From Pecten maximus (Eukaryota): a DNA stretch of 64,000 nt. Positions 9,001 through 39,000 of this stretch are shown one piece after another; the stretch's first letter is position 1, and every line of letters begins with the position of its first letter. The stretch lies in NCBI RefSeq assembly GCF_902652985.1, contig NC_047017.1:23684001-23748000 (forward strand), in the 5' to 3' direction. Made by a program: the position numbers.

Positions 9001-12000
9001 ACCAAGCAATGGATATTGCTCATATTTGCCTGGTAGCATCACTATTGGGTGGGCATTCAAAATTGTACAAATGGTGAGGCTGACCCCCCGGGGGCCTGAG
9101 GGGCAGGGCCAAGAGGGGTCAATTTGGCTGAATTGATATGAACAACTTCTTCTCTGAAACTAAGCAAGATATATCGCTCATATTTGCCTGGTAGCATCCT
9201 TTTGGCTAGGGATTCAAAATTTTATAAAGGAAGGAACTGACCCCCACTCCCCCTGGGGTGCAGAAGGCGGGGTCAAAAGGGGTCAATTGGTTTAAACAAC
9301 TTCTTTTCTGAAACTAAAATGGATATCACTCACATTTGTGTGGTAGCATCCCTATGGGGTTGTGCCAAAAGTTAATTTTATTTCGTGGATTAATGCATTT
9401 TTTGACATCAAATCCTCACGTACCCATATAAAATGCCTATGATATATTGACATAGCAATACCAGTGACAAATATACTTAATCATCATTCTTGTTTCATAT
9501 CTCATGAAATCCAGGTGAGCGATACAGGCCCTCTGGGCCTCTTGTTTAGCACTACATTTATATACGGTACATCTTGGGGATGCCCAAGATCCTTGTTAGG
9601 AGTTTGTGGAAATTTAATGGTTATCAACGTCTTGCTGTTACCAGAGATATGTGACTTGTATCTGTCTCAAACATCTAGAGATTTGGCACTTAAGCCGAAG
9701 ATTATTGTTAGGAGTTTGTGGAGTTTTAGCTGTTATATATCTTGCTGTGACCAGAGATATGTGACTTGTACCTTGTCACAGACTTCAAGATTTGGCACTA
9801 AAGCCGGAGATTATTGTTACAATTTGTGGAGTTTTAGCGGTTATTTACATCTTGCTGTGACTTGAGACATACGACTCAGCACCTTGTCACAGAAATCATT
9901 TAGTAAAAGTCTGGGATCTGTAACACAGCACCTTACCACAGAGTGATGTTATATGCCTGTTGTGTTCTATTTAAAGAGAATCTCGTCATTATATACATGT
10001 AGTTTGTGATAGCAGTCGATGGGTACTATGGTATGTAGAGTCGCTAGGTATGTAAGCCGAGTGGGAGAGAGTGTGTGCTGCATCAATCATCTAGACATTT
10101 TAACATTCTCTAGCATTACCACATTCGTTGTACCCACTTGTTGACTTGTTTATTTTGTGTGTCTATTTTATATGATGCTAATGTCTTTAATCATCTGTAA
10201 CTTGTTCTTTAAATAATTGTTTTACCCTTTCAGTTATGTCTTTTAAAAATAAAATATTTACAATAGATTTCACATCATTTTCATGACTTTTCTATTAGAC
10301 TTGCCTGACATATTGTTATATGTACGTCCATCTTTCATAGGTTAGATTATATGGTGGCATGGTCTATCAGTCTGCTTTATCAAAATTGTTTAAGACAAAT
10401 TTTAATAACAACAGAACCTTATATAGAACTAACATATTGTTGGTGAGTTGGTGTTTCAAACTTCTGAACCCAATAACTTCTGATTTCTCTACAGCCTTCA
10501 CCTAACAAGATTTTAAATGATACATAATGTTAATAAGCTAAAACCAAACATGTTTTAAAATTTTCAACTTTATTACAAAGTTGTATATACACCAGCGTAT
10601 CACAGACAATCAGTATCATTTAACAAATGTGTGATGTGTATAAAGTTTGTGGAAAATACAACACAAGACACTGATATGCAAATCTCATCTCACTGAATAC
10701 TATGAAACCAACATTTAAAAATAAATTAACAAAGACGAAGATGTTGACTTTAAACATATAAGTCTGATAAAATACAGATTTATATAGTGTATAACCATAT
10801 TATTTGGCAGTAAGGCCATGACTGGTTATGACTCACATGAAGTGTGCTTTCATACATGTAACACAGGTTCATATAACCCCATTCTGATATAAAACATACA
10901 CACTGCTTCCAAAATAAGTTTATGAGACTGAAAAATCTTTAATAAAAAAAAAGTTTTTAAAAAGTTTTCAGGCTGGAAAAAAAAGAGGAAAAAAAGAAGA
11001 AGATTTTATAATTTTAACGTATAATATGCATATCAATAATGCTTCTGTAATACAAGGTTGTTTTTGCAAAAACTGGACCATGATGAAATAAAATTTCATC
11101 AGGTGTATCTGTATGGACGGTAAAGGTAAACTTATACCCTTTTAGAGAATCTTATGACCTGTAAACTTTCTAGAGAATATAATGGACGGCAAACTTTCAG
11201 GCAAAAAATGCAGTATCTCATGGAAATTAATATGAAATACCTGAATAGAAACACATGCAAGGCAGCCATACATGTTGGTATTAATAACATCCATCAGTAC
11301 ACAATAAATACATCAATTTACACCATTACAGATACAGGTAACAAGAAATGTGCATTACAATATGGTAAAACAAGACCTGGATGATTTACAATGGTTGAAA
11401 TTTCTTTTCTAGTTCAAGACAAAATATTTTTGCCTTATAGATCTCGAAATTATAAATAGAATCTGTTCCGTGTTATTCACAAGCTTGTACATTTAAAGAG
11501 TAACCTTATGTCTTGTCTGTTCATTAACTTGGAGACATTCACTTCAGACACTTTCAACAATCATTCTTTTTTGCTGAAAAATGTCCCTGAATTGTTCATT
11601 AGTAAACATTCACTGCTTGAGGTGACAAATACAACCCACCGTACACTTTCCAGTTGAGAGAACAACCCATATTCTTTTTTAAAGTGTCCAGGTAGTTATG
11701 GGCTGATTCTACATTGGGATTTTCGTCTATTTGGATTTTCGTCACTGTTATAATTTCCAGGTTTACATGTGACAATGTAGAAGACCTAAGCCACCACCAG
11801 GTTTACATGTGACGCTGTAGAAGATCTAAGCCACCACCAAAGACTCGCTGACTGGCATACTGATCACACCAGTAATTATAGGTATACTCTTCCCTTCTTT
11901 CAATACAAATACCTGGAGGAGAAAAAATAAGTGGGATTATAATACATTACAAAAATAGCAAACAAAAAAGGATTTTACTAAAGTTTAGGTACATTCTGGA

Positions 12001-36000: not shown

Positions 36001-39000
36001 CAGGTGACCTAGTGTATTCTATTGTAGACCTATGTGTGACCTAGTGTATTCTATTGTAGACCTATGGGTGACCCAGTATATTCTATTATAGACCTACGAG
36101 TGACCTAGTGTATTCTATTTTAGACCTATGGGTGACCTAGTGTATTATATTGTGGACCTATGGGTGACCTAATGTCTTCTATTGTAGACCTACAGGTGAC
36201 CTAGTGTATTCTATTGTAGACCTATGGGTGACCTAGTGTATTCTATTGTAGACCTACAGGTGACCTAGTGTATTCCATTGTAGACCTATTGGTGACCTGG
36301 TGTATTCTATTGTAGACCTACAGGTGACCTAGTGTATTCTATTGTGGACCTATGGGTGACCTAGTGTATTCTATTGTAGACCTACAGGTGACCTAGTGTA
36401 TTCTATTGTGGACCTATGGGTGACCTAATGTATTCTATTGTAGACCTGTGGGTGACCTATTGCATTCTATTGTAGTGACCTAGTGTATTCTATTGTGGAC
36501 CTATGGGTGACCTAGTGTATTCTATTGTAGACCTGTGGGTGACCTAGTGTATTCTATTGTGGACCTACAGGTGACCTAGTGTATTCTATTGTAGACCTAT
36601 GGGTGACCTAGTGTATTCTATTGTAGACCTATGTGTGACCTGTTGTATTCTATTGTAGTGACCTAGTGTATTCTATTGTAGACCTATGGGTGACCTAGTG
36701 TATTCTATTGTAGACCTATGGGTGACCTATTGTATTCTATTGTAGTGACCTAGTGTATTCTATTGTAGACCTATGGGTGACCTAGTGTATTCTATTTTAG
36801 ACCTATGGGTGACAAAGTGTATGCCCATCTTCATGACAATGATGCCCCTGACAGAGCGGTTGAACTTGCTGCCCCGCCCAGATTGCCTGCCCTTCAGTTA
36901 TCTGATGATGAAGACGGTGACGATGACATCTGTATGGTATCTCTGGGAAATCCTCGGTTAACCTCATTTGATAATGAACCTATGACCAGACCAGCTGAAC
37001 CAAACGTTGTCCGTCCTACAGTTATGGCAGGTATGGCTACACTGCTGATGTGTTGTTTGACACAAATGAAAAATAGTAGCTACAACATAGATGTATCGGT
37101 AACCCCCAAGTTTAGATGTATCGGTAACCCCAAGGTTAAATATGTTGTGCAAATTTTTCAGTCCAATAAATTTCAGATTTCAATTGATGCTTTGAAATAC
37201 ACAGATAGCTCATTCTTTGGAATTACAGATTCACTGTAGCTGTTGGCATTGTTTCACAGAAATAAACAATTATTAAACATTCTTTCTTGGAGGTCTTTTT
37301 AAACTGCTGTAATTTATTCCTTGGTGAATAACACACATCTTGTATTTGGTTACTTCACACACAGAATTTATCTTACTCTTAGAATGAATTGATGAATTGC
37401 TACACAATATATCTGCTGTACAGCTTATCTCTATCCAACATGCTTTACCTGAACATATCCAAGCCTTATAAAATGTTTTAAGATTCCACCACTGGAAAGA
37501 AAACAAAGTCCAGGGCCAGAAGCAAACCTACCAAGCCGACATCTGTAAAACTATCTGCCGCGGCCTCCCATCCACATCTACCAATTGCAAGCCTCATCGA
37601 TAAACTGCCCACCTGTCCAGAGTCCAGTACAATGACAACATTACCCAGTTCCCAGGAGTCACAAGAGTCCCTAGGGTCCATTCGTAGTATAAGCTCATTG
37701 TCATCTGTGTCCAGCTTACCCCAGCCTGATTTTATCCTCACACCAGGAAACTTTGACATCATACTCTGCATAGACAACCAGGAGTTCTATGGAGGAGGGT
37801 AAAGAATAGCTGGTTAACCTTATAAAAAACCCTTGTCAAATATCTTTAATCTTTAAAATTAAAAATAAAAGCTTGCAAATAATTGAACTCTTCAAAAACA
37901 ACACATATGATTCTTGCAATGAAATGTATCTGAAAATCAACCATATTTGGGGGGGAAAAAAACTATTTATAATACCGGTATTTTATGTTTTAAACAATAT
38001 TGAGTAAAGCTTGAATTATGGTAAAGTTTTATGATATGTGTAAGTATATATTTTTTTTTTTTTTTATTTTTTTTTTTTGACATTCAGGAAAAATGGCAGT
38101 AAGACGTTGCTCCCAGACCTGATGAAGAATGGAGTGAATTGTGACTTGCGGAAACTTCAAGTAGGTGATCTTCTGTGGGTCGCAAGGGAGAAAACAGCTG
38201 GGGTTACAGGTAGGTATCTGATGTACCGGTACTGTGGAATATGTAATAATCATTATTATTTACTGGTTATCTGTAACTTGGATATTCTACATTATGGATA
38301 TGTTTGGGCAATGTGATATGGATAAACGTGCAATCTTCTCAATGAGGAACTCAAATGTTTTAAGGAATGAAACCTTTGGATCCGTGCTCAGTTTGCCAAA
38401 TGAAATACACAAAGAGAAAATAACTTGAGATGTATGGTATAGCTTTAAGGTAATTACTGGACCCTATGGATATTGATAGACATTTGTGTGAATAAAATGC
38501 ATCATTTCTATGACAATCTTTTCAAACTATGAAAATATCCATACTAGTGCATACACATGTATAAAGTCTGAAAGAATAGCTCTATCTTATTAAAGGGAAG
38601 GGGAGAGAACTTGTGTTGGACTACGTGGTGGAGAGGAAGAGGATGGACGACCTGGTTCACAGCTGTATAGATGGTAGACTGCCAGATCAAAAGGTGCTAC
38701 TTTCTTTTGAACAACAGATGTCAGATACAACTTTCTGACTACCAGCTCTTTATATTTTTGTTTTCAAACTGAATTTTAAACAGACAAATGTTCAAGAACT
38801 GTTAAGAGATAATAAAGATATATTTGCCTTTAGATATATTCCAGATAAAACACTTTTAAAAAGAGTAAATTTTTCACAAGACATGTTTTGGCTCTCGTAT
38901 ACTGTAAAAAAAACCATTGTAATTTACGCACCTTGAATATCACGATAACAATCAAAAATCAAACAATCCAAAAAAAATAATGAGCAAAATCTCAAGAATT

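What the first reader, a model, noticed from the sequence alone, without database searches (positions are those of the whole stretch)
11757..36822. Tandem duplications repeatedly nucleate on exon boundaries, at different stages of expansion
Seen: four unrelated repeat units straddle a functional boundary: BBS1 stop codon (40 bp x2, 11757-11838), BBS1 exon-13 donor (55 bp x~15), BBS1 exon-8 acceptor (54 bp x2, 17083-17189) and MUS81 exon-11 acceptor (32 bp x~37). Each array grows away from the coding sequence and leaves one intact copy. Inference: a lineage-wide process (transcription/splicing-coupled slippage, or selection keeping only outward expansions) that inflates introns and could seed intron sliding or gain. 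Other short duplications here (5370, 12048, 55228) are not at known boundaries, so enrichment needs testing.
Basis: partly seen in the sequence, partly recalled or inferred. Interest (0 to 1): 0.7.

Follow-up and report, generated by a model that had tools for sequence, protein, structure and literature searches.

The report
Tandem repeats spanning scallop exon edges
Four unrelated tandem repeats in two scallop genes really do start on a splice site or the stop codon, but this kind of repeat is already known from human genes, and one window cannot show that exon edges attract such repeats.

Summary
The window is scallop DNA: its exons are identical to Pecten maximus BBS1, MUS81 and a CRT-like protein. 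It holds BBS1 (- strand, 15 coding exons) and MUS81 (+ strand, 20 coding exons).

Four unrelated tandem repeats each overlap a coding edge by 7-22 nt:
- 40 nt x2 over the BBS1 stop codon
- 55 nt x15 over the BBS1 exon-13 donor
- 54 nt x2 over the BBS1 exon-8 acceptor
- 32 nt x~36 over the MUS81 exon-11 acceptor, split by a 776-nt transposon-like insert

They create 14 live decoy donors and 28 decoy acceptors that score about as well as the true sites. Every decoy tested leads to an early stop codon.

"Outward growth leaving one intact copy" is a geometric necessity of any surviving edge-spanning duplication, not evidence of a special process.

Four of the seven arrays in the mapped genes sit on an edge, against 0.35-1.8 expected. 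P runs from 0.0005 to 0.11 depending on the null, and the test is post hoc. A lineage-wide bias is therefore suggested at most.

Minisatellites whose first unit spans an exon-intron boundary are documented in human F7, CBS, IFI6-16, LMNB2 and PDGF. This is a new member of a known kind, and a possible natural test of splice-site choice.

The parts
11826..23063 (-). BBS1 coding region: 15 coding exons, ATG at 23063, stop TAG at 11826-11828
   Evidence: 5 of 10 frame pieces pass the Pfam cut-off for BBS1 or GAE_BBS1. Exons are identical to P. maximus BBS1 isoform X2, P0002. All 14 junctions have one solution.
11757..11839 (-). 40-nt tandem duplication, 2.1 copies. Copy 1 holds the last 11 coding nt, the stop codon and 26 nt of 3' UTR. 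Copy 2 lies wholly in the 3' UTR. The unit is bounded by (C/T)TGG microhomology.
   Evidence: TRF score 145, 93% matches. Sequence read. 14 CDS nt lie inside the array.
12811..13679 (-). 55-nt minisatellite, 15.4 copies, starting 8 nt inside BBS1 exon 13 and filling 861 of the 1303 nt of intron 13. Each unit repeats the donor GAG|GTACC.
   Evidence: TRF, sequence. 14 of 15 downstream copies keep GT, with donor scores of 5.1-6.1 against 5.1 for the true site. Unit lengths from the exon outward are 55,55,55,55,59,55,59....
13672..13806 (-). BBS1 coding exon 13; the donor follows base 13672
17083..17189 (-). 54-nt tandem duplication, 2.0 copies. The downstream copy holds the true exon-8 acceptor plus 7 exon nt. 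The upstream copy is a decoy acceptor 54 nt further up.
   Evidence: TRF, 86% matches, sequence. Acceptor scores are 5.4 (true) and 4.4 (decoy). Use of the decoy reads 17 codons and then TAG.
16983..17089 (-). BBS1 coding exon 8
   Evidence: Its first residues, IDLPSVPVF, are conserved in 12 of 12 aligned BBS1 proteins allowing conservative changes.
34843..34981 (+). Far part of the 32-nt MUS81 intron-10 minisatellite (4.3 copies), cut off from the rest by an insert
   Evidence: TRF, sequence
34982..35757 (.). 776-nt insert inside the array, with imperfect terminal inverted repeats (CAGGGCCC...) and GTATT on both flanks. It looks like a non-autonomous DNA transposon.
   Evidence: Sequence; inverted-repeat pairs I1-I4. 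The class of the element was not determined.
35758..36822 (+). Near part of the 32-nt minisatellite. It runs 22 nt into MUS81 exon 11, and each unit carries a branch-point-like GTGAC, a pyrimidine-rich run and TAG|ACC.
   Evidence: TRF. 27 in-register AG decoys score 3.4-7.6 against 5.7 for the true site, and 27 of 27 meet a stop. The last ~430 nt form 87-nt higher-order units (TRF row 36388-36813; unit lengths).
36801..37030 (+). MUS81 coding exon 11
   Evidence: Its first residues, PMGDKVY, are shared by 3 of 3 scallop-like MUS81 proteins.
24227..42512 (+). MUS81 coding region: 20 coding exons, head to head with BBS1
   Evidence: P0038 (P. maximus) is 100% identical over the 106-aa query. 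All 19 junctions have one solution. The ERCC4 piece passes the Pfam cut-off; the HHH_8 and WH pieces fall below it.
11713..11743 (.). Control: 16-nt x1.9 repeat in the BBS1 3' UTR, not on an edge
12049..12198 (.). Control: 74-nt x2.0 repeat in the middle of BBS1 intron 14, 83 nt from the donor, not on an edge
37088..37138 (.). Control: 25-nt x2.1 repeat in MUS81 intron 11, 57 nt from the donor, not on an edge

Best explanation
These are four independent edge-spanning minisatellites of the kind known from human F7 intron 7.

Each most likely began as an ordinary tandem duplication of a 32-55 nt segment, by replication slippage or microhomology-mediated template switching. The segment happened to include a splice site or the stop codon.

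Such a duplication rebuilds the original edge beside the exon and puts the spare copy in the intron or 3' UTR. The mRNA therefore stays the same as long as the exon-proximal site is the one used. Later changes in copy number, by slippage or unequal exchange that includes higher-order units, are tolerated only on the non-coding side. So every survivor looks as if it nucleated on the edge and grew outward.

The consequences are two inflated introns and pre-mRNAs that carry 14 decoy donors or 27 decoy acceptors about as good as the true sites. Using any of them would give an early stop.

Four such cases in one 64-kb window is best read as a somewhat unusual draw from a genome very rich in minisatellites (17.5% of this window), picked out after the fact.

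Shown here: the arrays, the edges, the overlaps, the unrelatedness of the units, the decoy scores and the stops. Inferred: how the seed duplications arose, which sites are used in vivo, and neutrality.
For: - Arrays and their overlap with exons.
- The units are unrelated and have no dispersed copies, so they arose locally rather than from a mobile element.
- The coding parts predate the arrays. PMGDKVY at the start of MUS81 exon 11 is shared by 3 of 3 scallop-like proteins. The BBS1 exon-8 start and C-terminus are conserved across the 12 aligned BBS1 proteins, except one divergent C-terminus (P0011). The exon copy keeps AAA (Lys) where the array units read CTA.
- (C/T)TGG bounds the 40-nt unit three times, as microhomology-mediated duplication would leave it.
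- Higher-order periods of 114 and 169 nt in the BBS1 array, and 87 and 183 nt in the MUS81 array, point to unequal exchange.
- Minisatellites are common throughout: 20 arrays covering 17.5% of the window.
- Under the most conservative null, 1.78 edge-spanning arrays are expected (P = 0.106).
- By position, edges are not over-covered: 4.9% against 11%.
- Short duplications show no excess at edges: 1 observed, 1.02 expected.
- Precedent: the Introduction of PMC1557585 lists human genes with minisatellites whose first monomer spans an exon-intron boundary. That paper shows that only the most upstream of identical donors is used in F7.
Against: - Four of seven arrays on an edge exceeds four of the five nulls at P < 0.05: 0.0028, 0.0005 and 0.0095 and 0.039.
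- Introns here carry fewer non-edge arrays (3 in about 29 kb) than the flanks do (11 in 29.5 kb). The edge cases therefore stand out within genes.
- Decoys as strong as the true sites should carry some splicing cost, which makes plain neutrality less comfortable. This applies most on the acceptor side, where the site in use is the last of 28.
- No RNA data were available, so use of the exon-proximal site rests on the predicted P. maximus proteins and on co-linear orthologues.
Confidence: 0.6

Rival explanations
1. Exon edges are true hot spots for tandem duplication in this lineage. The cause might be fork stalling at pyrimidine tracts, chromatin phased on exons, or collisions between transcription or splicing and replication. 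Edge-anchored arrays would then arise more often than elsewhere in introns.
For: Four of seven genic arrays are on an edge against 0.35-1.26 expected under four nulls (P = 0.0005-0.039). Within gene bodies, non-edge arrays are scarce (3 in about 29 kb).
Against: - The test is post hoc on a window chosen for the pattern.
- The fifth null gives P = 0.106.
- The four cases fall on three kinds of edge (stop, donor, acceptor) that share no sequence feature.
- DNA hairpin z-scores are mixed: -2.25 and -2.03 for two units, +0.71 and +0.90 for the other two.
- Low-score short duplications are not enriched at edges.
- The CRT-like gene has 12 edges and no array.
Confidence: 0.17
2. The arrays are kept because the reiterated splice sites do something. 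They might recruit U1 or U2AF to strengthen a weak true site, buffer it against mutation, or tune expression through decoy splicing coupled to nonsense-mediated decay.
For: - The true sites are middling. The donor scores 5.1 against a median of 7.0, and the acceptors 5.4 and 5.7 against a median of 7.1.
- 14 of 15 donor copies keep GT.
- All decoy uses tested end in an early stop, as decay coupling would need.
Against: - The decoy AG is not protected. Its A is lost in 6 of 33 units, making it the third most variable column (0.18 against a mean of 0.046).
- The GT columns of the donor array are no more constant than most other columns.
- The stop-codon duplication has no splicing role at all.
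- No expression data are available.
Confidence: 0.08
3. The direction is reversed. A satellite was there first, and the exon edge was recruited from it (exonisation), so the exon copies the repeat.
For: 22 of the 32 nt of the MUS81 unit match exon sequence, so homology alone does not give a direction.
Against: - The exon-edge residues are conserved in other scallops and, for BBS1, across animals.
- Array copies are 84-100% like their own consensus, which suggests a young array.
- The units have no other copies in the window.
Confidence: 0.03
4. BBS1 intron 13 or MUS81 intron 10 was itself created by tandem duplication of an exonic AGGT site (the Rogers model), and the array is what remains of that intron gain.
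For: The exon 13/14 join is GAG|GT, a proto-splice site, and the repeat read-through begins Val-Pro as exon 14 does.
Against: - 442 nt of non-repeat intron lie between the array and exon 14.
- The start of the intron (GTACCG) and the start of exon 14 (GTGCCC) share only 4 of 6 bases, two of which are the obligatory GT.
- Without its array and insert, MUS81 intron 10 would still be about 222 nt.
Confidence: 0.03
5. Assembly artefact: the arrays, or their copy numbers, are mis-assembled.
For: Long arrays of 90% identical short units are hard to assemble, so copy numbers may be off.
Against: - The copies differ at many positions and show ordered higher-order patterns.
- A transposon-like insert with a flanking duplication sits inside one array.
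- The two 2-copy cases are short and 86-93% identical.
- The window has no N.
Confidence: 0.03

Closest known systems
Human F7 intron-7 37-bp minisatellite, with the IFI 6-16, CBS intron 13, LMNB2 and PDGF intron 4 minisatellites listed beside it (Borensztajn et al. 2006, PMC1557585; abstract, Introduction and Discussion read)
   Same: The first monomer spans the exon-intron boundary: in F7, 4 exon nt plus 33 intron nt. The donor sequence is therefore reiterated identically in the intron. The exon-proximal (most upstream) donor is the one used, and the unit sizes (37-100 bp) and copy numbers (5-25) are comparable. The BBS1 exon-13 array (8 exon nt plus 47 intron nt, 15 copies) has the same anatomy.
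   Different: The host is a scallop and the genes are different. Two of the four cases here are on the acceptor side and one is on a stop codon, neither of which that paper lists. Copy-number polymorphism and actual site use are shown for F7 but are unknown here.
Internal tandem repeats at exon-intron boundaries of human genes in segmental duplications (De Grassi and Ciccarelli 2009, PMC2812944; passages read)
   Same: Minisatellite-sized units (about 30 bp on average) at exon-intron boundaries that lengthen introns and can alter splicing. That paper found 162 alignments with such repeats, of which 27 were kept as intron modifications.
   Different: Those cases were found as differences between recent paralogues and often change the transcript. 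Here the genes are single-copy and conserved, and the predicted proteins are unchanged.
[quoted passage not shown] 2010, PMC2891723, passages read; Hellsten et al. 2011, PMC3265369, and the potato RdRp case, PMC4974935, seen only as search listings)
   Same: A tandem duplication that includes AG|GT yields spare, usable splice sites. Premature stops in the duplicated stretch are noted in that work too.
   Different: In those cases the duplication lies within coding sequence and creates a new intron as long as the duplication. Here the introns were already present and were only lengthened, and the layout test for gain fails.
Tandem-repeat-containing MITEs of bivalves: pearl, CvA and DTC84 (Satovic and Plohl 2013, PMC3879986; passages read)
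   Same: They are short tandem arrays inside bivalve genes and spacers. The window holds such elements: 155-nt arrays next to a (CGTC)n microsatellite at two loci.
   Different: Those arrays travel with a mobile element and recur at many loci with the same flanks. The four edge arrays are single-locus, unrelated to each other and built from local exon-intron sequence.
Zhuo et al. [quoted passage not shown] Only its entry in three reference lists was seen; the text is not held.
   Same: Judging by its title and my recollection, it concerns tandem arrays whose units carry splice sites and give rise to introns.

Membership tests
Boundary-spanning intronic minisatellite (F7 intron-7 type) | Head-to-tail array of a 10-100 nt unit, at least 2 copies | tested here: met
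   TRF periods of 40, 55, 54 and 32 nt, 2.0-15.4 copies and more, 86-93% matches
Boundary-spanning intronic minisatellite (F7 intron-7 type) | The first (or last) unit includes exon bases, so the splice-site sequence is reiterated | tested here: met
   8, 7 and 22 exon nt lie inside the arrays. 14 of 15 donor copies and 27 in-register acceptor copies are intact. The stop-codon case has 14 CDS nt inside the array but no splice site, so it is an analogue rather than a member.
Boundary-spanning intronic minisatellite (F7 intron-7 type) | Only the exon-proximal site is normally used | not testable with these tools
   This is implied by the predicted P. maximus proteins and by co-linear orthologues. 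No RNA reads were available.
Boundary-spanning intronic minisatellite (F7 intron-7 type) | Copy number varies between individuals (VNTR) | not testable with these tools
   Only one haplotype is in hand.
Intron born by tandem duplication of an AGGT site | Both ends of the intron are copies of the same exonic segment, and intron length equals the duplication length | tested here: not met
   In BBS1 intron 13, 442 nt of non-repeat sequence precede exon 14, and the intron start and the exon-14 start share 4 of 6 bases.
Intron born by tandem duplication of an AGGT site | The intron is absent from relatives | not testable with these tools
Tandem-repeat-containing MITE (pearl/DTC84 type) | The same core repeats recur at several loci, next to a tetranucleotide microsatellite and inside conserved flanks | tested here: not met
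   The four edge units have 0 hits outside their own arrays in the window. The 155-nt arrays at 44855-46608 and 61172-62072 do recur, with (CGTC)n beside them.
Microhomology-mediated tandem duplication | The unit is bounded by the same short direct repeat before, between and after the copies | tested here: inconclusive
   40-nt case: TTGG, CTGG and CTGG at the three positions. 54-nt case: GTTT at the first two positions only. The multi-copy arrays give no information on this.

The most novel reading that the evidence does not exclude
In scallops, and perhaps bivalves generally, exon edges are preferred birthplaces of minisatellites. Edge-anchored arrays would then be a main route of intron inflation and a standing supply of equal-strength decoy splice sites. 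The genome would hold hundreds of natural experiments in splice-site choice, including the little-studied case of many identical acceptors upstream of the one in use.
Probability: 0.12. Interest if true: 0.65.

Novelty: new member of a known kind. Interest (0 to 1): 0.3.

Why it matters
If the local excess held genome-wide, it would point to a mutational link between exon edges and tandem duplication, and to an overlooked driver of intron size in repeat-rich invertebrate genomes.

Even as ordinary cases, the two long arrays are clean natural constructs. BBS1 intron 13 offers 15 near-identical donors. MUS81 intron 10 offers 28 near-identical acceptor modules, of which the last is the one the gene model uses. 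The donor side has been dissected in human F7. The acceptor side would test scanning against exon-definition rules in an invertebrate.

For annotation, such arrays are places where gene predictors and read aligners can pick the wrong copy.

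Tried and rejected
- Intron gain by duplication for BBS1 intron 13. The repeat read-through starts Val-Pro like exon 14, but the nucleotides agree at only 4 of 6 positions and 442 nt of unique intron intervene. Rejected.
- An early guess that an exon lay directly after the 55-nt array was wrong. Exon 14 is at 12282-12368.
- A shared hairpin-forming tendency of the units. 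z-scores were -2.25, -2.03, +0.71 and +0.90 for the four edge units, and +2.34 and +0.12 for two controls. No common signal.
- Protection or targeted loss of decoy sites. Column variability shows the decoy AG among the more variable columns, but tied to higher-order variants. The donor GT is unremarkable. Uninformative.
- Short sub-threshold duplications at edges. Only 37019-37037 covers an edge, as chance predicts.
- Widening the sample. The CRT-like gene was mapped and holds no arrays. The only exon of the adenylosuccinate-synthetase-like gene seen is at about 59.4 kb, and no further exon was recognised among open frames of 35 aa or more up to the window end. 0 of 10 long open frames in 1-11.4 kb hit Pfam.
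- The representative-protein search with the adenylosuccinate-synthetase-like exon returned only unnamed, mostly short proteins. I did not use them.
- Zhuo et al. 2007 could not be read.
- My three searches for acceptor-side boundary minisatellites turned up none. That is weak evidence that none is in print.

Full report
**What the window is.** The 64-kb window has no N and is about 35% G+C. I take none of it for human. A 106-residue exon translation is 100% identical to Pecten maximus MUS81-like protein P0038. A 147-residue one is 100% identical to P. maximus 'crt homolog 2-like' P0042. All BBS1 exons are identical, within their limits, to P. maximus BBS1 isoform X2, P0002. The window is therefore scallop DNA, from P. 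maximus or something very close to it. Pfam supports the gene names. Five of 10 minus-strand pieces pass the cut-off for BBS1 or its GAE domain. On the plus strand one ERCC4 piece passes, while the HHH_8 and MUS81 winged-helix pieces fall below their cut-offs.

**How the genes were mapped.** All searches with gene pieces were made exon by exon. I placed exon edges by tblastn of the P. maximus proteins against the window. A script then looked for GT/GC...AG pairs that reproduce the protein across each junction. All 14 (BBS1), 19 (MUS81) and 5 (CRT-like) junctions had exactly one solution.
- BBS1 lies on the minus strand: 15 coding exons, 23063 down to the stop TAG at 11826-11828.
- MUS81 lies head to head with it on the plus strand: 20 coding exons, 24227-42512.
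- The CRT-like gene occupies 48209-51935.

**The observation.**
- 40 nt x2.1, 11757-11839. Copy 1 holds the last 11 coding bases, the TAG and 26 bases of 3' UTR. Copy 2 lies in the UTR.
- 55 nt x15.4, 12811-13679. It begins 8 bases inside exon 13 (TCATAGAG) and repeats GAG|GTACC.
- 54 nt x2.0, 17083-17189. The downstream copy carries the exon-8 acceptor and 7 exon bases. The upstream copy carries a decoy acceptor.
- 32 nt, 34843-34981 and 35758-36822. I cut 36 units. The array runs 22 bases into MUS81 exon 11 with two mismatches.

The units are unrelated: 6 of 6 pairwise scores fall below the shuffle maximum. None has a copy elsewhere in the window. The array is therefore older than that insertion.

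**Which came first.** The exon sides are old.
- PMGDKVY at the start of MUS81 exon 11 is shared by 3 of 3 scallop-like proteins, and recognisably by a freshwater mussel.
- The start of BBS1 exon 8 (I/L/M-D/E-L-P-S-V-P-V-F) holds across the 12 aligned BBS1 proteins.
- 11 of those 12 end alike at the C-terminus; P0011 differs.
- The exon copy keeps AAA (Lys) where the array units read CTA.

The arrays therefore copy pre-existing edges, and the exons were not recruited from a satellite.

**What the arrays do to the genes.** BBS1 intron 13 is 1303 nt, of which 861 are array. MUS81 intron 10 is 2180 nt, of which 1182 are array and 776 the insert. The median of the 38 mapped introns is 500 nt. Without these additions both introns would be ordinary (442 and 222 nt).

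I scored sites with a small position-weight matrix built from the window's own 38 introns, leaving out the intron under test.
- Donors. The true exon-13 donor scores 5.1. Of 15 in-register downstream copies, 13 score 5.1, one 6.1, and one is dead (-2.4).
- MUS81 acceptors. The true exon-11 acceptor scores 5.7, and 27 upstream in-register AG sites score 3.4-7.6.
- BBS1 exon 8. The decoy scores 4.4 against 5.4 for the true site.

Every decoy leads to an early stop. Past the first donor the frame reads VPQLY and then a stop. The exon-8 decoy reads 17 codons and then TAG. All 27 MUS81 decoys meet a stop within 12-63 codons.

**Direction of growth.** That each array extends away from the coding sequence and leaves one intact copy follows from geometry. 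Duplicating a segment e+i that spans an exon|intron edge gives E-i-e-i-rest. The first edge is untouched and the spare copy lies in the intron. Growth is not confined to the far end either. The last ~430 nt before MUS81 exon 11 form 4.8 copies of an 87-nt higher-order unit (32+32+23; TRF row 36388-36813), and all three 23-nt variants lie in the last 12 units. In the BBS1 array the four exon-proximal units are 55 nt, and 59-nt variants alternate further out.

**Is it more than chance?** Seven arrays (period at least 10, score at least 50) lie in the three mapped gene bodies, which together hold 34,451 nt and 82 coding edges. Four of the seven straddle an edge. The other three are 11713-11743, 12049-12198 and 37088-37138.

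| Null | Expected | P(at least 4) |
|---|---|---|
| A unit of each observed length placed at random in the gene bodies, rejecting placements wholly in CDS | 0.74 | 0.0028 |
| Rate taken from the three non-edge genic arrays | 0.35 | 0.0005 |
| Window-wide rate (14 non-edge arrays, leaving out the two 155-nt mobile-element arrays) | 0.81 | 0.0095 |
| Flank rate (11 arrays in 29,549 nt) with genic unit sizes | 1.26 | 0.039 |
| Flank rate with flank unit sizes | 1.78 | 0.106 |

By position there is no excess: 4 of 82 edges (4.9%) lie in an array, against 11% of non-coding genic bases. Among 41 low-score TRF rows, one covers an edge, a 9-nt x2.1 repeat at the MUS81 exon-11 donor (37019-37037), where 1.02 is expected.

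All of these figures are post hoc, on a window reported because it shows the pattern. The 3' UTR length (400 nt) used in the nulls is assumed, and UTR exon edges are unknown. The result is suggestive, not established.

**Search for a common cause.** No shared driver appeared. DNA-fold z-scores of the four edge units are -2.25, -2.03, +0.71 and +0.90. The 40-nt unit is bounded three times by (C/T)TGG, as microhomology-mediated duplication would leave it. The 54-nt unit shows GTTT at only two of three positions. The decoy AG is not protected: its A is lost in 6 of 33 units, a column variability of 0.18 against a mean of 0.046. The donor GT columns are unremarkable.

**What is known.** Borensztajn et al. 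2006 (PMC1557585; abstract, Introduction and Discussion read) state that several human genes hold minisatellites whose first monomer spans an exon-intron boundary, so that the donor is reiterated. Their examples are:
- F7 intron 7 (37 bp; 4 exon nt plus 33 intron nt; 5-9 copies)
- IFI 6-16 (25 pseudo-sites)
- CBS intron 13
- LMNB2
- PDGF intron 4

In F7 only the most upstream of the identical donors is used. De Grassi and Ciccarelli 2009 (PMC2812944; passages read) report tandem repeats at exon-intron boundaries that lengthen introns and alter splicing in human paralogues. Lehmann et al. 2010 (PMC2891723; passages read) tie tandem duplication of proto-splice sites to new intron positions in Drosophila. 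Hellsten et al. 2011 and the potato case I saw only as search listings. Zhuo et al. 2007 I saw only as a reference-list entry; its text is not held.

The BBS1 exon-13 array is thus a plain new member of a known kind. My three searches found no description of acceptor-side arrays, or of a duplication over a stop codon, as a class. That is weak evidence that none is in print. Supplementary tables of these papers were not opened and may list such cases.

**What stayed unchecked.**
- No mollusc genome collection was available. I could not test orthologous introns, a genome-wide overlap or polymorphism.
- No RNA data were available, so use of the exon-proximal sites rests on predicted proteins.

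**Verdict.** 'Outward growth with one intact copy' is a necessity, not a clue. Intron inflation is shown. A lineage-wide, edge-seeking process is neither shown nor excluded.

Noticed in passing
window 34982-35757: A 776-nt insert inside the MUS81 intron-10 array. It has imperfect terminal inverted repeats starting CAGGGCCC, internal ACTCGTCCG-type subrepeats and GTATT on both flanks, and looks like a non-autonomous DNA transposon. It shows that the array predates the insertion.
   Followed up: partly
window 29561-30466 (+), inside MUS81 intron 5 (27224-32011): An uninterrupted 302-aa open frame on the same strand as MUS81. It passes Pfam cut-offs for PML_C (66 bits), RNase_T exonuclease (38.5 bits) and Exu_RNase_H_like (32 bits), so it may be a nested intronic exonuclease-type gene. 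This intron is by far the longest in the gene (4788 nt).
   Followed up: partly
window 44855-46608 and 61110-62072: The same 155-nt tandem repeat occurs at two loci, each preceded by a (CGTC)n microsatellite. (CGTC)n is the complement of the ACGG motif. This is the layout described for pearl/DTC84 tandem-repeat MITEs of bivalves (PMC3879986, passages read). Flanking modules and target-site duplications were not examined.
   Followed up: partly
window 1-9897: Seven unrelated arrays (units of 49, 34, 53, 66, 40, 158 and 110 nt) fill much of the first 10 kb, and 0 of 10 long open frames there hit Pfam. It is a minisatellite-dense stretch downstream of BBS1 with no recognisable gene.
   Followed up: partly
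window 37019-37037: A 9-nt unit (CAGTTATGG / CAGGTATGG) is repeated across the MUS81 exon-11 donor. The upstream copy lies in coding sequence and lacks GT. Its TRF score is 31, and one such overlap is expected by chance.
   Followed up: yes
window 14408-14430; also 22742-22761, 57460-57489, 58699-58720: Long G or C homopolymers of 20-30 nt. The first reads as C23 on the BBS1 strand and ends 27 nt upstream of the exon-12 acceptor.
   Followed up: no
window 18305-18304 (- strand): BBS1 intron 6 has a GC donor (CAG|GCAAGT). It is the only non-GT donor among the 38 mapped introns.
   Followed up: no
window 53661-54588: A 38-nt x24 array downstream of the CRT-like gene stays open in two reading frames for 343-363 codons. 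This is probably just a repeat unit free of stop codons, not a gene.
   Followed up: no
window 48209-51935 and about 59363-59515: Two further genes. One is a six-exon CRT-like transporter, identical to a P. maximus protein. The other is the first exon of an adenylosuccinate-synthetase-like gene, recognised by its GDEGKGK motif from memory. No later exon was recognised before the window ends.
   Followed up: partly
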